DNA of 64,000 bases, from positions 27,263 through 91,262 of IMG/VR virus record IMGVR_UViG_3300020045_002743; one strand, 5' to 3'. The position numbers and the translations under genes were made by a program. Of this stretch, positions 1,879-56,893 are shown piece by piece. How positions within the stretch are numbered: the first letter of the stretch is position 1; each line of letters starts with the position of its first letter. A model generated the notes under the pieces. It worked only from the letters and a program-made list of their open reading frames with translations. It was not told the origin of the DNA and searched no databases. Source of the DNA: a virus.

Positions 1879-2185
1879 CATCTACTAAAAATGTAGATCG
1901 GAACAGAGAGATATGTAGCACTCACCGTACTGTTCTTAAAAGCCTATGAAGAGAACCATGAAGGGCTAACCCGAGTAATTAGAGCTTGTTGAGGGGAAGT
2001 GGCTAGACTTACAATCTTAGGATTGTCTAGGTAAGACAAGCAATTCATCTGGCCTCAAGCCAGCCTAGTGACATCTCAATTAGGATGTACAAAGGGGAGA
2101 AGTTATGCTAAGGTTACTCCTAATGCAAATTAAATTTTGTATGGGGTTCCCTAGGCTAGTTGTAACTTCTCCTAGCTCAAAACTC
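1879..2185 (+). ncRNA. candidate ~300-nt structured ncRNA (or structured DNA element)
   Basis: No ORF; many inverted repeats (GGAGAAGTTA/TAACTTCTCC, GCTTGTT/GACAAGC, ACAATC/GATTGT, CTGGC/GCCAG, ATCTAC/GTAGAT); starts just after a promoter. Confidence 0.5.
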
Positions 2186-2241
2186 ATTAGGATATTATAT
2201 AACTATATCTACTTAGTAAGAATAGAGATAAGGAGAAAGAG

Positions 2242-2424
2242 ATGTATGAAGGTTTAGAAGAGCTAAAGAAAGATTATAATAAATACAATCCATACTTAGC
2301 AACAGGAGAAGATCTTGATCGTATAGGCGAGCTTTGTGGTTTAAAAAGAGAATATAATGAATGGCTAGAATCTGATAGGGATTTCAGGATTAGGGTTTTA
2401 TATGAGTTAGTTAAATATATTTAA
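2242..2424 (+). CDS. mini-protein resembling baseplate wedge (gpJ/DUF2612) core motif
   Basis: AAGGAGA RBS; YNPYLATGEDLDRIGELCGLKR..ESDRDFRIR resembles FDPNSATGIALDNLVALGGITR/ETDEELRLR (28755 ORF) and ATGAQLDVIGRIVGQER (30208 ORF). Confidence 0.6.
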   Translation: MYEGLEELKKDYNKYNPYLATGEDLDRIGELCGLKREYNEWLESDRDFRIRVLYELVKYI

Positions 2425-2493
2425 CTTAGCTATTGACATCTGTTATTCAATAGTGATACTCTTCATATTATAAATCAAAGAAGGAGTCCACTT

Positions 2494-2670
2494 ATGGGCG
2501 AAGCTGTATTTTGCTCGTATTGTGGCGAGCTAGAAAGTGATTGTGTATGTGATGTTGTAATTGAGTATCTAGAAGACAATGATCCTGACTTCAAATTTGA
2601 ATGGGCTCATGAGTCAACGACAGAATTGAACTCAACATCATTTAGAATTATTTTACCAATTTATGAATAA
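2494..2670 (+). CDS. 58-aa Cys-rich hypothetical protein
   Basis: AAGGAG RBS; MGEAVFCSYCGELESDCVC...; TTGACA promoter at 2433. Confidence 0.55.
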   Translation: MGEAVFCSYCGELESDCVCDVVIEYLEDNDPDFKFEWAHESTTELNSTSFRIILPIYE

Positions 2671-2674
2671 ATAC

Positions 2675-2703
2675 TTGACAAATAACCATTGTTCATATAA
2701 ACT
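2675..2703 (+). promoter_or_regulatory. sigma70-like promoter for ncRNA/tRNA cluster
   Basis: TTGACA-17-TAAACT. Confidence 0.65.
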
Positions 2704-2728
2704 AAAAGAACTGAATAAGAAAAGATTT

Positions 2729-3050
2729 ATGCGAGGCCAGATAACCCTTTATTGGTTATCGAAAGGTAGGGCACTACTCAAGGCTGACTAATTTTGTCTG
2801 TCTCCTACACAGCTCGCACTTAACACATTCAATCTTCGTCAAGATTGTCTAATTCCCTTTAAGGGGCTTGAAGAATTCTGACGAGAGTTTAAAGTCTTCC
2901 CTTTGTGTGACGGAGAGCAATGAATTAGCTGAAAGGCAAAAAGAGCATGCAGTTCAATTCTGCTCGGTAGCTGAGGGTTGGTACGCAACCGTTCGATTCG
3001 GTTCTAGTCTATCTGGTGATAGAAGCTTGACTGATGGAAAGACATCACAA
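2729..3050 (+). ncRNA. structured RNA(s) 5' of tRNAs, with two T-loop-like arms
   Basis: TGCGAG/CTCGCA-closed junction; GCAG-TTCAATT-CTGC and AACCG-TTCGATT-CGGTT arms; TGATG-GAAAGA-CATCA hairpin. Confidence 0.45.
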
Positions 3051-3055
3051 ATTAT

Positions 3056-3128
3056 TGGGGAGTAGCACAGCGGTAGATGCGCAAAGCTGTTAACTTTGAT
3101 GTCGCAGGTTCGAATCCTGCCTCCCTAG
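3056..3128 (+). tRNA. tRNA-Asn(GTT)
   Basis: Acceptor TGGGGAG/CTCCCTA, anticodon arm CAAAG-CTGTTAA-CTTTG, GTTCGAATC T-loop; CCA not fully encoded. Confidence 0.92.
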
Positions 3129-3134
3129 CCTTTC

Positions 3135-3208
3135 GCCCTTCTCGTATATTGATATTACATCTGTTTTGTAATCAGAATAAGGCAGTTTGATTCTGTCGTG
3201 GGGCACCA
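3135..3208 (+). tRNA. tRNA-Thr(TGT)
   Basis: GCCCTTC/GTGGGGC acceptor, TTTGTAA anticodon loop, GTTTGATTC T-loop, ACCA end. Confidence 0.8.
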
Positions 3209-3272
3209 GCTTAGAAAGCTAGATAAGCGTCGGGTAACAGAGACTAGCGAACATATCTCGACAGCGACCAAT

Positions 3273-3349
3273 ATTCCCGTAATTCAACTGGATAGAATAT
3301 CTGTCTTCTAAACAGAACGTTGCTGGATCGTACCCAGCCGGGAATACCA
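3273..3349 (+). tRNA. tRNA-Arg(TCT)
   Basis: ATTCCCG/CGGGAAT acceptor, TCTGT-CTTCTAA-ACAGA, ACCA end; atypical T-loop ATCGTAC. Confidence 0.85.
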
Positions 3350-3354
3350 GATAT

Positions 3355-3434
3355 GCGGATGTAGGTCGCCCCTACAGCTTTAGACAAGAATTCAGAGGCA
3401 TCTGAAAGATCAATTTAAAGTGGCCTCCGCACCA
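3355..3434 (+). ncRNA. CCA-ended tRNA-like small RNA (non-canonical)
   Basis: GCGGA/TCCGC acceptor-like stem + ACCA; internal hairpins but no anticodon or T-arm consensus. Confidence 0.45.
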
Positions 3435-3484
3435 GTTTCACCCACAATCACTAAGATTAAGTCTAAAAAGATTGTGGTATTCAC

Positions 3485-3618
3485 GCTGTCATCTCCTCTC
3501 CTAAGACAGCACTTAAGATATTCTCTGTTCCTCCTCTCTCCTCGCAGAGAATATCTTCTGGCCTTGGATAGATTATACTAGTCCTCTCCTTCTAATATAA
3601 TCTTCGCTAACAGGGCCA
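3485..3618 (+). ncRNA. candidate sRNA: three hairpins with anti-Shine-Dalgarno (CUCUCCU) loops
   Basis: Stems GCTGTC/GACAGC, AAGATATTCTCTG/CAGAGAATATCTT, GATTATA/TATAATC, each with a TCCTCTC(T)CCT-type loop. Confidence 0.6.
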
Positions 3619-3707
3619 TTTCTTAAGCGTTCTTCTTCATTATGAATACTACAGGGCATAGCCGGTAAGTTCGCTTAAGAAATCACTTATTCATAGGAAC
3701 ATACATT

Positions 3708-4121
3708 ATGGCTGGTAATTCGAAAGATAAACAGACCGATAAGCAAAAAAGTACACAGTTCCAAGGTGAACGTAGCAATAGAAATACCAAAGGCAATAGC
3801 AAGGTTCGTATTACTAAGTCAAAACTTCGTGCAACTGCTGAAAAGCTTCGTGAGATTGAGCCTAAAGCACTTGAGAACATCAAGAATAGTGTTGAAGGTA
3901 TTGAAGTTGACGCTAAACAGCTTTCAACCAGTCAATGGGTAATTACGAGCATCATTTCTCTGGACCGTGCAGCAAGCGGAGAAGAGGCAGCCTTGACCAA
4001 GATTCGTCTTGAAGGTAAGCGTACGGACGATGATGAAGATGAGCAGAGAGAAGCTGCTGAGATTGTAAAGCTCGTACCTCGATTAAAGCTTACCTTTGAT
4101 GAGCCACCCAAAGAAGATTAA
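3708..4121 (+). CDS. putative terminase small subunit / DNA-binding protein
   Basis: N-terminal STQFQGERSNRNTKG resembles TerS-type N-terminal motifs; helical, acidic C-terminus; no other TerS candidate seen. Confidence 0.4.
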   Translation: MAGNSKDKQTDKQKSTQFQGERSNRNTKGNSKVRITKSKLRATAEKLREIEPKALENIKNSVEGIEVDAKQLSTSQWVITSIISLDRAASGEEAALTKIRLEGKRTDDDEDEQREAAEIVKLVPRLKLTFDEPPKED

Positions 4122-4265
4122 AAGAATTTGTAGTGAGCCAGTGTGAAACGGTAGGCTTTAAATGGAGCGAGTACTCCCAGCTACAAACCTAACTAGATCG
4201 TAAGGTCTGGTATCGTCCTTTGCCTAGGACACCCGGAACCTCTGGCGGGGTTCCATCTATTCCAA

Positions 4266-4340
4266 GGGTCCATAGTTCAGTCCGGTTAGAACAGTGACCT
4301 CATAAGTCATTTGTCGTAAGTTCAAGTCTTACTGGACCCA
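4266..4340 (+). tRNA. tRNA with CAT anticodon (Met or lysidine-modified Ile2)
   Basis: GGGTCCA/TGGACCC acceptor, GTGAC-CTCATAA-GTCAT, GTTCAAGTC T-loop. Confidence 0.88.
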
Positions 4341-4357
4341 CCCCACATAAAAGGAGA

Positions 4358-4699
4358 ATGACAATGCTCACTGTAAAACGTGGGGACACTTTCGATCAAC
4401 TTGTCAGTCTCCCCGATACATTTGCTGATGGCTATTTTGTAGGCTGGACAATCACATCACAGATTAGGACATCACAATACTCAAGGCTAATTTCTGAGTT
4501 TAGTCCTACATGGCTTGACCCTGTAACCACAAGAGTAGTTAAGCTTTTCATGCTTGATACACAATCTTGGCCTATTGGTATATTACAATTAGATATTCAG
4601 TTTACAAGAAACTCTGATTCCTACGTTATTAGTACACAAACTCTTGATGTAACAGTAACCAAGGATATTACCTTTCCAACTCCAGTGGTGTCTGTGTGA
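4358..4699 (+). CDS. BppU-N-like virion adaptor protein
   Basis: KRGDT N-terminus, beta-rich 113 aa, coupled to fibre gene. Confidence 0.5.
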   Translation: MTMLTVKRGDTFDQLVSLPDTFADGYFVGWTITSQIRTSQYSRLISEFSPTWLDPVTTRVVKLFMLDTQSWPIGILQLDIQFTRNSDSYVISTQTLDVTVTKDITFPTPVVSV

Positions 4700-7194
4700 T
4701 TGAAGTAGAATTTGCTGGTCAGTATTTCAAAGGTGATAAAGGTTTAAACTGGAAAGCTGCATATGTTAACACAACAGCTTATCTAAAAGACGATGCTGTA
4801 TTTTATAATGGATCGAGTTATGTAGCTCTCCAAAACAGTACAGGAAATCTTCCAACTAATACCACTTTTTGGAGCATCCTTGCTCAGAAGGGAGATAACG
4901 GTTCCGGTTCCTCTGTCACATCTGTGAACGCTAAGATTGGAGATGTTGTCCTTGTTCCTTCTGATATTGGTGCTGCTACGTCGGCTCAAGGTGCATTAGC
5001 GAACACTGCTGTACAACCATCTGGTCTGAACAAAGCTGCTGTAGGATTATCTAACGTAGATAATACCTCAGATATTAATAAACCAATCTCTACAGCTGTT
5101 CAGTCTTCGTTAGATTTGAAAGCCCCTCTTAACTCTCCGTCCTTTACAGGTACTGTCACCGGTCTTACAAAAGCAACAGTTGGGCTAGATAATATCGACA
5201 ATACTGCCGATATTGATAAACCTCTAAGTACCCTACAGACTAACGCATTATCTCTAAAGGCACCCCTAAATTCCCCAACGTTTACGGGTACAGTGGGCGG
5301 GCTCAATAAGACGTTCGTAGGTCTTGGTTCAGTTGATAACACTTCTGACTTAAATAAACCAGTAAGTACTGCACAACAAGCTGCACTTAATCTGAAGGCC
5401 AATGTAGAATCTCCAGCATTCACCGGGAACGTTATTGGCGTCGATAAGACAATGGTTGGCTTGTCTAATGTGGATAACACCACAGATGCAAACAAACCTA
5501 TCAGTACAGCCCAAGCTGCTGCCTTGGCATTGAAAGCCCCACTGGATTCACCAGCTTTTACTGGCACGGTTACAGGATTAACTAAATCAACTGTTGGTTT
5601 AGGAAATGTTGACAATACTAGTGATCTGAATAAGCCTATCTCAACGGCTGCTCAGGCGGCATTGAATCTAAAAGCTAACTTAGCTTCACCTACGTTCACA
5701 GGAACTGTAGGCGGGATTACAGCTAGTATGGTCGGTCTTGGTAATGTCAATAACACAGCAGACACAACCAAACCAATTTCAACAGCAACTCAAAGCGCAT
5801 TAGACCTTAAGGCTCCTTTAGCCTCACCAACCTTTACAGGAACAGTGAGTGGTATTTCTGCCGCCATGGTTGGCCTAGGTAATGTAAATAATACGAGTGA
5901 TGCTAACAAACCAGTAAGCTCAGCTACCCAAACAGCTCTGAACCTTAAGGCTGATTTGACAACGCTAGCTAATTATCGGCTACTTACAAACAACGCATTT
6001 ACTGGAACATCTGCTGCCACTGCATTTCCTACATCTGTTGGACAATTAGCACCAACCACTAGCACAGCAATGACTTGGACACCTCTAACAGCCTCACAAG
6101 CTGTAGTCCCAGCCATGCTAACCACTCTTAACATTAATACAGCAACAGCTAACACTGTCACTAACAGTCATGGTATTGGTGAGCTTGTTATTACAACTGT
6201 TCAAGGTGGTGGCTATTGTGACCTGTCTTTTGCAAAAGAATATCGTTTTGCAATGCAGAATGCTAGTACAGCTGGTCAGTTCATCGGAACTAAATATGTA
6301 TTTGAACCAGACAGCACTAACAGTGGTACGCTAAATACTTTTATCACTGAACAGTTTGATAATATGACAACAAGCGTTACGTGGATTAGTAATTTCCAAC
6401 GTAATTTCCTTGATCCTCGTATGGTTACATATCATGCTGGAGGACAAGTAGCGTTTGCTCAAATTATTACTGGTAATTACACGTTCACAGATAAAGATTC
6501 TGGTAAGACATTTGTCTATAATTCAGCATCTCTTGGGACGATGACATTTGGTGCTGGTATTACCAATGGGTTTAAAGTTACAATTAAGCATGGTTTAGGT
6601 GGTGCTGGTGTAACACTTGTTTCCTCATCAAGAACAATAGTAAACAACGCAACCCGTATTGCTTCTTTGTTTGCACTTGATGAAGTCACTGTTGAGGCTT
6701 TAGATCCAGGTGGATTCTTAACTTTAAACTGGAAAGATCCCCTTCCAACTTATTCTGTTAATAATACAACCTCTATCACCAGAAACGTAACTACCAACAG
6801 TTCTGTATCAGATCTTACTGTAAACCTTGAAGCCAATTCTGTTTATGAAGTAAGTTTTAATTGTGCCTACACTACAACAGCTACTGCACAAAGTCTGAAA
6901 CTTGGATATGCGAGTACAGCAACAGGGACTACTTTCCTATTTGATGCTGGTGTTCAAATAACTAACGTCGCAGGTACAGCTTCTACAGTATTAGGCCCAC
7001 TTAATACTACAGCAGCAACAATTGCAGGGACAGCTTCTGTTGCAAGTGTTGAGCAGAATGCTTTCATACGTGGTAAGATAATCACATCCTCAACTGCTGG
7101 TAACTTTGCTATTCAAGTAGGGGCAATCTCTACAGCTACCACGCTGACAATAGCAATTGGTAGGGCACCGCTCTTAATCAAGAAGATTAAGTAA
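4696..7194 (+). CDS. virion fibre protein with 46-aa tandem repeats
   Basis: KGDKG/W..Y...D.V.YNGSSY N-terminus; ~7 VGL.NV.NT.D..KP.ST repeats; T/S/A-rich. Confidence 0.75.
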   Translation: MIEVEFAGQYFKGDKGLNWKAAYVNTTAYLKDDAVFYNGSSYVALQNSTGNLPTNTTFWSILAQKGDNGSGSSVTSVNAKIGDVVLVPSDIGAATSAQGALANTAVQPSGLNKAAVGLSNVDNTSDINKPISTAVQSSLDLKAPLNSPSFTGTVTGLTKATVGLDNIDNTADIDKPLSTLQTNALSLKAPLNSPTFTGTVGGLNKTFVGLGSVDNTSDLNKPVSTAQQAALNLKANVESPAFTGNVIGVDKTMVGLSNVDNTTDANKPISTAQAAALALKAPLDSPAFTGTVTGLTKSTVGLGNVDNTSDLNKPISTAAQAALNLKANLASPTFTGTVGGITASMVGLGNVNNTADTTKPISTATQSALDLKAPLASPTFTGTVSGISAAMVGLGNVNNTSDANKPVSSATQTALNLKADLTTLANYRLLTNNAFTGTSAATAFPTSVGQLAPTTSTAMTWTPLTASQAVVPAMLTTLNINTATANTVTNSHGIGELVITTVQGGGYCDLSFAKEYRFAMQNASTAGQFIGTKYVFEPDSTNSGTLNTFITEQFDNMTTSVTWISNFQRNFLDPRMVTYHAGGQVAFAQIITGNYTFTDKDSGKTFVYNSASLGTMTFGAGITNGFKVTIKHGLGGAGVTLVSSSRTIVNNATRIASLFALDEVTVEALDPGGFLTLNWKDPLPTYSVNNTTSITRNVTTNSSVSDLTVNLEANSVYEVSFNCAYTTTATAQSLKLGYASTATGTTFLFDAGVQITNVAGTASTVLGPLNTTAATIAGTASVASVEQNAFIRGKIITSSTAGNFAIQVGAISTATTLTIAIGRAPLLIKKIK
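5032..5955 (+). repeat. 138-bp (46-aa) degenerate coding tandem repeat, ~7 units
   Basis: VGLxNVDNTxDxxKPxSTAxQxALxLKAxLxSPxFTGTVxGxx, last unit partial. Confidence 0.9.
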
Positions 7195-38473: not shown

Positions 38474-39442
38474 TTAACTTAATTTATACATCTCGTAAGC
38501 CGGTGTAAAGCTTCCTCCTAAGTTTGCTTTGGCATACTCAACAATGCTACGCTCAAAAAATGATCCAAATGTTTTACCCATCATTGCGTCAATCCATGGG
38601 AGTGGGTTCTCTTTAACATTCCAGTTCTTCTTAAACCCTAACTGTTGAAGACGATAGTCAGCTACGTAACGAACATATTTTTTAACATCCTCTTTTAATA
38701 GGTTGCTAACACCGCCCATTTTAAAAATTCGATCAACAAAGGCATCCTCCAACTTTACAAGTTCGCGTGCAGAAGAATAAATATCTTTCTTGAACTCATC
38801 ATTTACAATTCTAGGATGTTCATCTAGAAAGATACGAAACAATGCAGTGTTGCCTTCTACGTGAATTGATTCGTCAACCATACTCCACCGAACAATATCA
38901 CACATTCCAGGCAGCTTACCAAGACGGTCAAAGTTTAGCAAGATGGCGAAAGATGCAAACAAACTCACGCCCTCCATCATCGTCTGTTTGGCCAGATACT
39001 TAGCAAAGTCTGTATGACTTTTACCAATACTCTCAATCATGTATTCATGCTTTTCTTTCATCTCTATATAATCAAGAAACTCGTGATAAAAACTTTCCCC
39101 AAAACCCATCGTATCAGAGAACAGTGCATACGCCCGGATGTGCGTACCCTCCCTAGCAGCAAAGCTCCCTAACATAGAACGTGCTTCATTGTTCTTAATG
39201 TAGGGAATGATCTTATCGTAATAGCCTTGGCCCACATTTACATCCGACTGAGTGAACAGGCGAAAGATGTTAGAAGTGAGGTTCTTCTCTTCAGGTAGAA
39301 TCTTACCGTTCTTCCACTGCTCAACATCGGTGTTCAACTTAGCTTCATGTTCATACCAATGCACCTTTTCATGCTTGATATTTATATCGACTAAGCTGTG
39401 GTATTTTGGCGAATAAATCTCGCTGTATTCTGTGAGGCTCAT
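38474..39442 (-). CDS. nrdB: ribonucleotide reductase class I beta subunit
   Basis: FTQSD, E..H..AY, EG..LFASF, DESIH di-metal and tyrosyl motifs. Confidence 0.95.
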   Translation of the reverse strand: MSLTEYSEIYSPKYHSLVDINIKHEKVHWYEHEAKLNTDVEQWKNGKILPEEKNLTSNIFRLFTQSDVNVGQGYYDKIIPYIKNNEARSMLGSFAAREGTHIRAYALFSDTMGFGESFYHEFLDYIEMKEKHEYMIESIGKSHTDFAKYLAKQTMMEGVSLFASFAILLNFDRLGKLPGMCDIVRWSMVDESIHVEGNTALFRIFLDEHPRIVNDEFKKDIYSSARELVKLEDAFVDRIFKMGGVSNLLKEDVKKYVRYVADYRLQQLGFKKNWNVKENPLPWIDAMMGKTFGSFFERSIVEYAKANLGGSFTPAYEMYKLS

Positions 39443-54839: not shown

Positions 54840-56633
54840 TTAGTAAGGTTGGTCATCGCCTGTACTCACTGGGTTTTCTACCATATCATAATTTGTTTGA
54901 TATTCATAGTCCATTGTAGGACCATTTCCATTTGCTGCCATCCAATCATCCTTATCCCACAATTGGTGTGTCCGATTATCGTAGTAGTATTCACCAGCAT
55001 TGCCTGTGTTACCTACACCTCGTGCCTTGGTCAGCTTAGCTCGTGTAGTGTTACGCTCATCAGGATCTTCAGCTTCTTTATCCCGCATAAGAATAATGTT
55101 AATACCACCACTTTTAAAGATACTGCTGTGGCCGTGCATATCTTCTTCAGACAATTCAGCACCACGACTGTTTGCTTTACTCCCTTGCCCACTTTTGCGG
55201 CTGTGATTAATGTTAATGAAGATTACACCTTCACGTTTACGAACATCTTTCTGCCACTTCATGAACTTAGCCTGTTCGTCATCACCCAAGGCATCAAATA
55301 CATCCTGCAATGGATCTAGGATAATTACTTTGCATCCAAGACCAACAATCAAATATTCCACACGGGCTTTCAGATTTTCAACATCACTATCAACAAGATA
55401 GAAACGAGGATCACCATTTTCATCCTGCCACAACTGTTTACGTTTTTCAATGTTGACAGGATCTTTCAGGTATGCAACACGTTCTTCTGTGCTTTCTAGA
55501 AGATTCAACTTGAATTGGCAATAACTGCTGCTCAAGTTTACACCATATTCACCCTCACCAACTTCAAGACTGACAATACCAACACGCAAACCTGATGTCA
55601 TAATCCAGTGAAGAATCATTGCATCTGCAAATGTAGATTTACCTGTACCCGATGCACTTAGAATATTCACAATGCAATCTTGTGGAATCCCCCCACACAA
55701 CATACGTTCAAGCTTATGCATAAACGGAGGAAGTGAAAGACGTGGAGTACTTACATACTCTAGCATCTTGGCTTCAAGATCAAGACTAGAGGTTACACCT
55801 TCTGGAACAAATTGGCGTGCCTTAAAGAAAAGGTTAATCCATTCTTTTTGTTTACCTTCTTCAAGGTATTTGTTGCAATCTTTAAGTGCCATATCCATCA
55901 AGAATACTTTACCACGGGGCAATACTTTCATTACCTTCTCAGCAGATGCTCGGCCAACATCATCTGAATCATAGGCAATAATCAGACGCTCAAAACGATC
56001 AAACCACTCGTACTGGGCTTGGATCTGCTTATGACTCCCACTCTCCCCAATGGTACTAGAAACCACAGGAATAGCCTCATAGTCTCCATTACCTTTGCTT
56101 ACTTGATATTCACGCAACATTTGGAATGCACTTAAACTATCTAGTTCGCCAGAGGTGATTACACAGTATTTACCTGAAGCAGCTTTAAACTTAAACTGCA
56201 TAAACAAATCACACAATTTACCTGTTTCGCCAATAGCACCAAAGGTTTTTGGTACTCCTCTCCATTTGTAACCTGTCAGCTCAAAGTCCGTAGTAGTTGG
56301 ATAGTATTGTTTTGAGACATTACCTTCTCCATCAAACTCATGACGTACACCAAAAGCTTGGCATGTGCTCTTAGTGAGACCTCGAAATCCACGAGGATCA
56401 ACAGAAGTAATCCCTTTCAACTCATTATGAATTTCTTCATTAAATTCAGCACCCACTAATTCATACTCCTTTTCTTCTACATAATTGGTTGATTCACTGC
56501 CACGAACAATGATTCCGTGCCTAGCAAAGCAAAATTTCCCACCATCAGAATAGACAGCAAGATTGTTCATTGAATTATCTCTGCCCTCAGCCTCACACCT
56601 TGGGCATTGTTCCTTTCGGACTACTTCCGCCAC
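54840..56633 (-). CDS. DNA primase-helicase (T7 gp4-like)
   Basis: CPRC zinc finger, TOPRIM (GELD, DSD), Walker A SGTGKST, SLE, ILDP; probable GTG start 56633. Confidence 0.93.
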   Translation of the reverse strand: MAEVVRKEQCPRCEAEGRDNSMNNLAVYSDGGKFCFARHGIIVRGSESTNYVEEKEYELVGAEFNEEIHNELKGITSVDPRGFRGLTKSTCQAFGVRHEFDGEGNVSKQYYPTTTDFELTGYKWRGVPKTFGAIGETGKLCDLFMQFKFKAASGKYCVITSGELDSLSAFQMLREYQVSKGNGDYEAIPVVSSTIGESGSHKQIQAQYEWFDRFERLIIAYDSDDVGRASAEKVMKVLPRGKVFLMDMALKDCNKYLEEGKQKEWINLFFKARQFVPEGVTSSLDLEAKMLEYVSTPRLSLPPFMHKLERMLCGGIPQDCIVNILSASGTGKSTFADAMILHWIMTSGLRVGIVSLEVGEGEYGVNLSSSYCQFKLNLLESTEERVAYLKDPVNIEKRKQLWQDENGDPRFYLVDSDVENLKARVEYLIVGLGCKVIILDPLQDVFDALGDDEQAKFMKWQKDVRKREGVIFININHSRKSGQGSKANSRGAELSEEDMHGHSSIFKSGGINIILMRDKEAEDPDERNTTRAKLTKARGVGNTGNAGEYYYDNRTHQLWDKDDWMAANGNGPTMDYEYQTNYDMVENPVSTGDDQPY

Positions 56634-56647
56634 AATCCTCTCCCAAT

Positions 56648-56893
56648 TCAAATGCTTTCAAGAATAGCCAATGCTTGCTTAACACTCTCACGTACATTGT
56701 CAAGAGTGTCTTGTGCATCCTGCCCTTCCTCAACAGCCCTATCCAATTCCTCTTGACTATACGTTCCCTCCATAATCTTCTGGACAAACCCCGTCAGATC
56801 CATATCCCCACAAAACAGAATGCCAGAATTAGAGAAACTTAGCAACTCATCTTTGGAATAGATATTTAGGTTAATTTGTGAGATGTCAATCAT
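56648..56893 (-). CDS. hypothetical protein
   Basis: AGGAG RBS at ATG 56893. Confidence 0.55.
   Translation of the reverse strand: MIDISQINLNIYSKDELLSFSNSGILFCGDMDLTGFVQKIMEGTYSQEELDRAVEEGQDAQDTLDNVRESVKQALAILESI

What the first reader, a model, noticed from the sequence alone, without database searches (positions are those of the whole stretch)
3485..3618. Triple-hairpin anti-Shine-Dalgarno sRNA: candidate phage translational switch
Seen: three consecutive hairpins with unrelated stems but near-identical pyrimidine loops: ATCTCCTCTCCTAA (3491-3504), TTCCTCCTCTCTCCTCG (3528-3544) and TCCTCTCCTT (3582-3591). The loops are complementary to AGGAGAG, the RBS found before many early/middle genes here (starts near 1695, 42831, 44787, 50111, 51890, 58445, 63015). 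Most abundant structural genes instead use AAGGA[A/T]- or AAGGT-type RBSs (MCP, sheath, tube, gpJ, fibre); the portal is an exception. The element is co-oriented with the tRNA transcript and is followed by an 11-bp IR (TTTCTTAAGCG/CGCTTAAGAAA, 3619-3682) that could be a processing site. Established analogy: S. aureus RNAIII blocks SD sequences with C-rich loops. Inference: a multivalent sRNA that occludes GGAG-type RBSs (host and own early mRNAs) while sparing most late mRNAs. If the antisense strand is transcribed instead, the loops would present GGA motifs like a CsrA/RsmA sponge.
Basis: partly seen in the sequence, partly recalled or inferred. Interest (0 to 1): 0.88.

Follow-up and report, generated by a model that had tools for sequence, protein, structure and literature searches.

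The report
Phage RNA with anti-Shine-Dalgarno loops
An uncultured group of ~90-kb phages keeps, inside its tRNA gene cluster, a ~250-base folded RNA whose two to four hairpin tips always expose the pyrimidine motif CCUCUCC, the complement of ribosome-binding sites. It is real and conserved and probably masks such sites on messages, but this has never been tested.

Summary

I found 24 members, all on uncultured phage contigs and mostly on 83-92 kb contigs. Stems differ completely between members but always pair, while the loops keep CUCC/UCUCCU. H4 shows strong covariation. G·U pairs, fold energies and tRNA co-orientation point to the + strand. In several members the RNA starts right after a tRNA CCA end.

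It has the same design as the alphaproteobacterial cuckoo/αr14 sRNAs (NfeR1, CcsR) but is not a member: 24 bits against a gathering score of 58.8, a different loop motif and a different context. The four cultured relatives I checked lack it.

Complementarity is biased toward replication-block RBSs: significant here, a weaker trend in the same direction in five relatives. The primase-helicase RBS is the one conserved best match. Expression and function are untested; RNA-library contigs give only a weak hint.

This scan has flagged the same kind of RNA before on other phage DNA (e1-5963587, e1-5900425, e1-5855381).

Verdict: a real, undescribed phage riboregulator candidate and a new variant of a known kind.

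The parts
2675..2703 (+). Sigma-70-like promoter (TTGACA-17-TAAACT), a candidate start of the tRNA/sRNA transcript
   Evidence: 10 of 12 matches. The same type of site marks the early regions of the genome. Consensus match only.
3056..3349 (+). Upstream tRNA genes: Asn 3056-3130, an extra tRNA 3135-3205, Arg 3273-3349
   Evidence: ARAGORN. Rfam tRNA at 59.6, 43.2 and 56.8 bits.
3355..3434 (+). tRNA-like unit with an acceptor-like stem, ending ...CCGCACCA directly before the element
   Evidence: Fold -24.5 kcal/mol, z = -2.7. Not called as a tRNA. In L040, L018 and L034 a true tRNA ends at -1/-2 of the element. L010 and L022 also have ACCA there.
3435..3442 (+). Conserved 5' motif GUUUCACC, the 5' boundary of the conserved element
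   Evidence: Present in nearly all members. Contigs of relatives in four sequencing runs begin to align at 3431-3434.
3442..3477 (+). H0: 8-bp hairpin with a large loop. In the L022, L009 and L005 types the loop carries CCUCC.
3485..3510 (+). H1: 6-bp stem, 14-nt loop AUCUCCUCUCCUAA
3515..3557 (+). H2: 14-bp stem, 15-nt loop UCCUCCUCUCUCCUC
3559..3618 (+). H3: two-tier hairpin, loop UCCUCUCCUU. The family consensus loop is CCUCUCCU or CCCUCUCC.
   Evidence: The three loop-proximal pairs are paired in 21/21 members, with 5-6 pair types at each position.
3619..3682 (+). H4: three-way junction. It has a long basal stem with conserved base UUUCUWAA/UUWAGAAA and two small hairpins. It is a candidate 3' processing or protective module.
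   Evidence: Alignment A3. 95% of cells paired, 15 of 18 pairs with changes on both sides, 0 of 500 shuffles as good, slid controls 29-49% paired. Folds.
3708..4121 (+). Conserved 137-aa helical protein of unknown function, always downstream of the RNA. It may be only a syntenic neighbour.
   Evidence: tblastn hit in all 20 member loci tested. At least 168 homologues, none named, no Pfam domain. Model pLDDT 68, no significant fold match.
4266..4342 (+). tRNA-Met downstream on the same strand

Best explanation
This is a phage-encoded, tRNA-linked small RNA of about 185-250 nt (3435-3618, or to 3682).

Proposed biogenesis (inferred): it is transcribed on the + strand together with the tRNA genes and is cut out by the host's tRNA-maturation and RNase E/III machinery. 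Its 5' end would lie at or next to GUUUCACC, right after a tRNA or tRNA-like CCA end. Its 3' end would lie at, or be protected by, the H4 three-way junction.

Proposed action (inferred): the two to four stable hairpins serve only as scaffolds. They display single-stranded pyrimidine loops with the core CCUCUCC/UCUCCU. These loops base-pair with GGAG/AGGAGA(G) Shine-Dalgarno regions and so block 30S binding, in the way shown experimentally for the three redundant anti-SD loops of NfeR1. Several equivalent loops per molecule, plus tRNA-operon expression, would make it a high-capacity, low-specificity translational damper. Host messages and the phage's own replication-block messages would be the best-matched substrates, and most structural genes the least matched.

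Shown here: the anatomy, the conservation, the covariation, the strand preference, the tRNA adjacency and the complementarity statistics.

Inferred: transcription, processing, trans action and the direction of the effect.
For: 1. Structure: z = -7.0.

2. Family of 24 loci, each with 2-4 CU-loop hairpins.
- Among 59 hairpins in 21 members there are 48 distinct 5' arms.
- Own arms pair at 5.53 of 6 positions, against 2.40 of 6 for arms swapped between members.
- Loops are 618/629 pyrimidine.
- CUCC occurs in 58/59 loops and UCUCCU in 47/59.
- The loop-proximal H3 pairs are paired in 21/21 members with 5-6 pair types each.

3. H4 covariation: 95% paired, 15 of 18 pairs compensatory, 0 of 500 shuffles as good.

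4. Strand: 39 G·U pairs among 326 loop-proximal pairs and G·U-rich H4 columns. The + strand has the lower MFE in 17/21 members, p = 0.006. All flanking tRNAs and genes are on +. No promoter-like site lies on the - strand.

5. 5' end: a tRNA ends at -1/-2 in three members and ...ACCA precedes the element in three more.

6. Complementarity: AGGAGA is the phage's dominant SD, with 76 sites of which 47 are next to starts. AGGAGG has 21 sites, 6 next to starts. It is the exact complement of UCUCCU. Replication-block RBSs pair better than structural ones. The primase-helicase RBS is the one orthologue group with consistently top-ranked pairing in 6 genomes: mean rank 0.08, against a null 5th percentile of 0.12.

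7. Precedent: the full-length sub-threshold match is to Rfam ar14. αr14/NfeR1 silences targets through redundant anti-SD loops (PMC10746234), and the cuckoo family has the same design (PMC4615179).
Against: - No direct evidence of transcription, processing or trans action. The phage and its host are uncultured.
- No public run held this phage. Only contigs of relatives were found, some of them in RNA libraries, which can contain DNA.
- The RBS-class bias is modest outside this genome. It could simply reflect longer purine-rich SDs in replication genes.
- No loop/RBS co-variation across relatives.
- Eight-nucleotide loops complementary to a generic SD give little target specificity. Selectivity therefore remains unexplained.
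- No terminator follows the element, and the only promoter-like site is about 730 nt upstream.
- The conserved 5' motif, H0 and the elaborate H4 junction are not explained by an anti-SD role alone.
Confidence: 0.5

Rival explanations
1. Protein decoy or sponge. The arrayed single-stranded CU loops titrate or recruit a protein that binds pyrimidine-rich RNA, or a factor that recognises the 3' tail of 16S rRNA. Candidates are ribosomal protein S1, Hfq, or a tail-directed nuclease or toxin. On this view the loops do not pair with mRNAs.
For: Several equivalent loops on variable scaffolds is the design of the known sponges (CsrB/RsmZ type). Loop length varies from 7 to 20 nt while the composition stays 98% pyrimidine, which suits protein recognition of composition. 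The conserved H0, H4 and 5' motif could be further protein sites.
Against: The core is a defined sequence (CUCC in 58/59 loops, UCUCCU in 47/59), not mere pyrimidine richness. It is the exact complement of the phage's commonest SD. No partner protein is identified: the syntenic 137-aa protein has no RNA-binding signature.
Confidence: 0.2
2. Cis-acting processing or stability module of the long tRNA-to-late-gene transcript. The hairpins and H4 act as nuclease entry sites or barriers that separate the tRNAs from the downstream mRNA, or as a leader that controls the 137-aa gene. The released RNA would have no trans function.
For: The element always lies between tRNAs and the 137-aa gene. H4 has a 16-17-bp perfect basal stem. 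There is no promoter or terminator of its own. The element abuts tRNA 3' ends.
Against: Barrier hairpins need no conserved loop sequence, yet the loops are the most conserved part. In L004, L010, L011, L025, L028 and others the gene lies 1-3.5 kb away, or tRNAs intervene. The downstream gene's SD (UAGGAA or AAGGU type) is a poor match for the loops.
Confidence: 0.13
3. The opposite strand is the functional RNA. Its loops would read AGGAGAGG and act as a CsrA/RsmA sponge.
For: The - strand also folds better than chance (z = -4.25). The nearest cultured relatives infect Pseudomonas, which uses the Rsm system. PAK_P3 makes late antisense RNAs in its tRNA region.
Against: The frequent G·U pairs become A·C mismatches on the - strand. 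The + strand is more stable in 17/21 members. The - strand has no promoter-like site. The conserved 5' boundary follows + strand tRNA ends. There is no Rfam CsrB/RsmY/RsmZ match.
Confidence: 0.05

Closest known systems
Cuckoo / αr14 sRNAs of Alphaproteobacteria (Rfam RF02344; NfeR1 of Sinorhizobium meliloti, CcsR1-4 = RSs0680a-d of Rhodobacter)
   Same: Both have 2-4 adjacent hairpins. Stems are highly variable through compensatory changes. The same pyrimidine anti-SD-like motif sits in every loop (PMC4615179). The Rfam model aligns over its full length, 1-123, with all three loops in register. For NfeR1 the loops are redundant seeds that occlude RBSs (PMC10746234).
   Different: The loop motif is CCUCUCC(U)/UCUCCU, not CCUCCUCCC; CCUCC occurs in only 12/59 loops. 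The score is 24 bits against a gathering score of 58.8. The element is phage-borne, sits inside a tRNA cluster and has no promoter or terminator of its own. It has extra conserved modules: the 5' GUUUCACC, H0 and the H4 three-way junction. It is most likely convergent rather than homologous.
c4 antisense RNA of phages P1/P7
   Same: It is a phage-encoded, processed small RNA whose loop sequences pair with the RBS region of a phage mRNA and block translation (review PMC12197685).
   Different: c4 has one specific target (ant) and belongs to temperate-phage immunity. Its loops are not repeated generic anti-SD motifs. No Rfam match appeared.
Staphylococcus aureus RNAIII and RsaE/RoxS-type sRNAs with C-rich loops
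   Different: They belong to a cellular quorum-sensing or metabolic regulon, use a UCCC motif and have a different architecture. There is no sequence or model similarity.
Stable non-tRNA RNAs of phage tRNA clusters (T4 species 1 and 2; PAK_P3 ncRNA1/2)
   Same: They are small stable RNAs encoded among phage tRNA genes and generated by processing rather than from their own TSS. For PAK_P3 this is in PMC10914365; for T4 it is general knowledge.
   Different: The PAK_P3 RNAs, read in L012, have no CU-loop hairpins. PAK_P3 also has no H4 match. The functions of those RNAs are unknown as well.

Membership tests
Cuckoo / αr14 (RF02344) | 2-4 adjacent hairpins | tested here: met
   Three in the window. 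Two to four across the 24 members.
Cuckoo / αr14 (RF02344) | Every hairpin loop carries CCUCCUCCC | tested here: not met
   The loops carry CCUCUCC(U)/UCUCCU. CCUCC occurs in 12/59 loops, and no loop in the window has CCUCCUCCC.
Cuckoo / αr14 (RF02344) | Stems vary freely through compensatory changes while the loops are conserved | tested here: met
   48 distinct arms among 59 hairpins. Own-arm pairing is 5.53 of 6, against 2.40 of 6 across members.
Cuckoo / αr14 (RF02344) | Reaches the Rfam gathering score | tested here: not met
   24.0 bits against 58.8.
Cuckoo / αr14 (RF02344) | Independent gene with its own promoter and Rho-independent terminator on alphaproteobacterial replicons | tested here: not met
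   The element is on virus contigs. No terminator-like site was found, and the nearest promoter-like site is about 730 nt upstream, before the tRNAs.
Cuckoo / αr14 (RF02344) | Loops silence mRNAs by pairing at the translation-initiation region | not testable with these tools
   Only complementarity statistics are available.
CsrB/RsmY/RsmZ-type CsrA sponges | Multiple GGA motifs in hairpin loops of the transcribed strand | tested here: not met
   The + strand loops are 98% pyrimidine. GGA would appear only on the - strand, which the G·U pairs and fold energies disfavour. There is no Rfam match.
c4 antisense RNA (P1/P7) | Match to the Rfam C4 model | tested here: not met
   No C4 match among hits up to E = 10 in 2000-5000 or in 3350-3710.
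tRNA-linked processed RNA (operational class) | 5' end abuts a tRNA 3' end on the same strand | tested here: met
   A tRNA ends at -1/-2 in L040, L018 and L034. ...ACCA precedes the element in the window, L010 and L022. Actual cleavage is not testable here.

The most novel reading that the evidence does not exclude
A widespread clade of virulent phages makes, from its tRNA operon and by using host tRNA-processing enzymes, an abundant multivalent anti-Shine-Dalgarno RNA. The RNA out-competes ribosomes for AGGAGA(G)-type sites. It would thereby shut down host translation and the phage's own replication genes, first of all the primase-helicase, while sparing weak-SD structural genes. This would be an RNA-only counterpart of T4 RegB-type SD-directed early-message shut-off, and a convergent reinvention of the cuckoo RNA design by viruses.
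Probability: 0.25. Interest if true: 0.85.

Novelty: new variant of a known kind. Interest (0 to 1): 0.66.

Why it matters
Very few regulatory RNAs are known from virulent phages. A 2025 review of phage-derived sRNAs lists none of this type (PMC12197685).

This is a well-defined family: 24 loci on uncultured phage contigs, and at least 168 homologues of the linked protein in metagenomes.

Its design has been shown to work as a translational silencer only in alphaproteobacterial cells. If it works the same way here, phages would have an RNA tool for global or class-selective control of translation initiation, made at tRNA-operon levels.

It would also be a clear case of convergent evolution of a modular 'hairpin scaffold plus anti-SD loop' RNA. 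It offers compact parts for synthetic translational control.

The hypothesis can be tested directly with reporters, even though the phage itself is uncultured.

Tried and rejected
- PAK_P3 ncRNA1/2, which are processed and accumulate late (PMC10914365): read in L012, they have no CU-loop hairpins. They are not the same RNA.
- MAFFT plus RNAalifold on H0-H3 (A2) failed to recover the stems because the arms share no sequence. MAFFT on short H3 windows introduced register shifts. I therefore counted pairs with my own loop-anchored scripts.
- Single-hairpin scan: CU-loop hairpins taken singly are not enriched, 35 against about 31 expected.
- Genome contigs pattern scan: more than 120 matches, all chance. 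None had the family architecture, so there is no bacterial copy and no host clue.
- The look-up of sequencing runs and read laying: no run holds this phage, with shares of 0.23 or less. Contigs of relatives occur in DNA runs labelled gut and aquatic metagenomes. They also occur in two RNA libraries labelled soil and wastewater, covering 3434-3540 and 3434-3623 plus tRNAs, but not the 3708-4121 CDS. Lack of cover over the CDS and the presence of RNA-library contigs are not proof of transcription.
- The blastn 'distant' search of the phage collection found only tRNA matches. tblastn with the 137-aa protein found nothing.
- Cultured relatives vB_PsaM_M1 (TerL 84% identical), vB_PpS_SYP and phiPMW have no paired-loop pattern. 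These three and PAK_P3 have no H4 model hit.
- 137-aa protein: no Pfam or PHROG function and no significant fold match. The best was a small terminase at E = 1.4.
- Loop/RBS co-variation in G005, which has CCUCC-type loops: none.
- Literature search for CCUCUCC or CU-rich loops returned nothing about phages.
- Lead from an earlier scan note, that the RNA is released by a ribozyme: no ribozyme family matched within 2000-5000 up to E = 10.

Full report
**Setting.** The window is the right 64 kb of a 91,262-bp IMG/VR virus record rated 100% complete. GC content is about 40%. The virus is a myovirus of the Felix O1 / Ounavirinae type. Its large terminase is 84% identical to that of the marine Pseudomonas phage vB_PsaM_M1 and 62-65% identical to those of phiPMW and vB_PpS_SYP. 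Its capsid protein is only about 40% identical to any cultured phage.

Positions 2670-4350 are essentially non-coding. They hold tRNA-Asn, a fourth tRNA seen only by Rfam (3135-3205), tRNA-Arg and tRNA-Met, all on the + strand. A sigma-70-like promoter lies at 2675-2703 and no terminator-like site was found.

**Checking the observation.** The + strand RNA 3475-3625 folds into the three described hairpins at -44.9 kcal/mol, z = -7.0. The - strand gives z = -4.25. The listed AGGAGAG ribosome-binding sites exist. Taken singly, hairpins with CUCC-type pyrimidine loops are not rarer than chance in this genome. The case therefore rests on clustering and conservation.

**The element is larger and forms a family.** I found relatives in two ways: with the downstream 137-aa protein and with a loop-plus-inverted-repeat DNA pattern in IMG/VR. 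Later checks of L010, L011 and L004 added three more. The total is 24 members, all on uncultured phage contigs. Most lie on 83-92 kb contigs and the rest on shorter contigs down to about 6 kb.

All share one plan:
- a 5' (G)UUUCACC motif;
- hairpin H0;
- two to four hairpins whose loops are almost pure pyrimidine;
- a 3' Y-shaped hairpin, H4, with the conserved base UUUCUWAA/UUWAGAAA.

In the window this plan spans 3435-3682.

**Conservation pattern.** Across 59 CU-loop hairpins in 21 members:
- there are 48 different 5' arms;
- a hairpin's own arms pair at 5.53 of 6 loop-proximal positions, against 2.40 of 6 when arms are swapped between members;
- loops are 618/629 pyrimidine;
- CUCC occurs in 58/59 loops, UCUCCU in 47/59, CCUCUCC in 30/59 and CCUCC in only 12/59.

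In H3 the three loop-proximal pairs are formed in 21/21 members with 5-6 different pair types at each position. Sliding the register drops pairing from 84.5% to 31-43%.

H4, which MAFFT aligns well (A3), shows:
- 95% of cells paired;
- 15 of 18 pairs with changes on both sides;
- a covariation score of 0.60 against 0.25 in shuffles, with 0 of 500 shuffles as high;
- slid controls at 29-49% paired.

This is the signature of a functional RNA in which the stems are scaffolds and the loops are the business end.

**Strand and ends.** Four lines of evidence favour the + strand:
- G·U pairs are frequent: 39 of 326 in H1-H3, and one H4 column is G·U in 14 of 20 members. On the - strand these would be A·C mismatches.
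- The + strand has the lower MFE in 17 of 21 members, p = 0.006.
- All neighbouring tRNAs and genes are on the + strand.
- All promoter-like sites found are on the + strand.

The conserved block starts sharply at GUUUCACC. A bona fide tRNA ends at -1/-2 in L040, L018 and L034. In the window, L010 and L022 the preceding bases are ...ACCA, and in the window they close a tRNA-like acceptor stem at 3355-3434. I infer that the 5' end is made by tRNA 3' maturation. G|UUU also fits the published RNase E preference (my own knowledge, not tested here). The 16-17-bp basal stem of H4 would be a plausible RNase III site or a 3' protective structure (inference).

**Expression.** No public run contains this phage. 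Contigs of relatives in two DNA runs and two RNA-library runs all begin to match at 3431-3434. The RNA-library contigs carry tRNAs plus the element. RNA libraries can contain DNA, so this is only a weak hint.

**What it resembles.** The best Rfam hit, well below threshold, is αr14 (RF02344): 24 bits against a gathering score of 58.8. The match covers the full model, with all three loops in register.

αr14 is part of the cuckoo family, which is defined by 2-4 adjacent hairpins, highly variable stems and the loop motif CCUCCUCCC. It is found in Rhizobiales and Rhodobacterales (PMC4615179). Its member NfeR1 silences mRNAs by occluding the RBS with three redundant anti-SD loops (PMC10746234).

The phage RNA has the same architecture and the same evolutionary mode, but it fails membership on the loop motif, the model score, the genomic context and its lack of transcription signals of its own. 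It also has extra conserved modules. I read it as a convergent analogue.

It is not the PAK_P3 ncRNA1/2. vB_PsaM_M1, vB_PpS_SYP and phiPMW have no paired-loop pattern. These three and PAK_P3 have no match to a covariance model of H4. A blastn search of 50,697 phage records found only the tRNAs.

AGGAGA, the exact complement of UCUCCU, is the phage's dominant SD. It occurs 76 times, 47 of them beside start codons. AGGAGG occurs 21 times, 6 of them beside starts.

I used a crude gene caller. In this genome:
- a perfect 6-mer complement of the loop core sits upstream of 18/43 genes of the leftward replication block, against 5/38 structural genes (Fisher p = 0.006);
- loop-RBS duplex energies differ at p = 1e-4;
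- the difference remains after subtracting pairing to a generic 16S tail, p = 5e-4.

I repeated this on five complete relatives using their own loops. Proteins of these relatives are 43-52% identical to those of this genome. The direction is the same in all five, but the effect is modest: p = 0.12, 0.0045, 0.071, 0.049 and 0.14.

Among 56 orthologue groups, one stands out in all six genomes. It is the Toprim plus DnaB-like primase-helicase at 54840-56651 on the - strand. Its mean rank is 0.08, against a null 5th percentile of 0.12 for the best group.

Against a sharply 'private' RBS class:
- only about 10% of genes carry GGAGAG-type sites;
- the relative with CCUCC-type loops shows no matching shift in RBS usage.

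Timing is also open. The upstream promoter-like site is of the same sigma-70 type as those in the early regions.

**Neighbour.** A 137-aa helical protein with a basic N-terminus follows the RNA in every member, at distances from 25 nt to about 3.5 kb. It has at least 168 unnamed homologues, no Pfam family and no significant structural match. The weak top hits include a small terminase. All members share gene order, so this synteny does not show a functional link.

**Conclusion.** The feature is a real, conserved, structured + strand RNA embedded in a phage tRNA operon. Its most likely role, at about 0.5, is a processed trans-acting anti-Shine-Dalgarno riboregulator of the cuckoo/NfeR1 type. 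Its best-matched substrates would be generic strong-SD messages and the phage's replication genes.

The rivals are:
- a protein decoy (0.2);
- a purely cis processing or stability module (0.13);
- an antisense CsrA sponge (0.05).

Earlier follow-ups in this scan reached similar readings for look-alike RNAs on other phage genomes.

Noticed in passing
window 3135-3205 (+): A fourth tRNA gene that ARAGORN missed. Rfam tRNA scores 43.2 bits against a gathering score of 29. It is 86.7% identical to unannotated stretches in Pseudomonas phages VCM and Kremar.
   Followed up: partly
window 3355-3434 (+): An 80-nt tRNA-like unit with a 6-bp acceptor-like stem, ending in CCA and abutting the sRNA 5' end. 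It is not called as a tRNA. It is possibly a processing handle.
   Followed up: partly
window 2808-2920 (+): Part of the ~350-nt leader before tRNA-Asn is conserved in contigs of relatives from all four runs laid, both DNA and RNA libraries. Its fold is not distinctive, z = -1.1. It may be another conserved non-coding element.
   Followed up: partly
window 4184-4266 (+): Three tight hairpins just upstream of tRNA-Met (-29.9 kcal/mol, z = -2.8). The stretch from 4208/4230 onward is conserved in relatives' contigs together with the tRNA.
   Followed up: no
window 3708-4121 (+): A 137-aa protein with a basic N-terminus, helical core and acidic tail. It has at least 168 unnamed homologues on ~85-94 kb metagenomic contigs and no family assignment. 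A weak structural resemblance to a small terminase suggests it may be the missing TerS.
   Followed up: partly
window 54840-56651 (-): Toprim plus DnaB-like primase-helicase. Its unusually long G-rich RBS is the best match to the sRNA loops, and this holds in all six genomes compared.
   Followed up: partly
whole genome (window coordinates -25283 to 58855): 17 near-consensus sigma-70-type promoters (TTGAC[A/T], 16-18 nt, TAnnnT). They are concentrated in the two early-gene arms and at 2433, 2675 and 10007.
   Followed up: no
L188 10540-10915 (Pseudomonas phage vB_PsaM_M1, record 38539-38914): An unannotated ORF with a basic N-terminus and acidic C-terminus lies before a ~700-nt non-coding stretch and the tRNA cluster. 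Its position matches that of the 137-aa gene, but tblastn found no similarity.
   Followed up: no
L012 2345-2478 (PAK_P3 sRNA2): The annotated PAK_P3 sRNA2 contains a GGTTCGATTCC T-arm-like motif. It looks like a degenerate tRNA rather than a regulatory hairpin RNA.
   Followed up: no
L191 1270-1590 (G006, the contig of L004): This family member has four CU-loop hairpins and an enlarged H4 (z = -9.85). Module number therefore varies from 2 to 4, as in cuckoo RNAs.
   Followed up: yes
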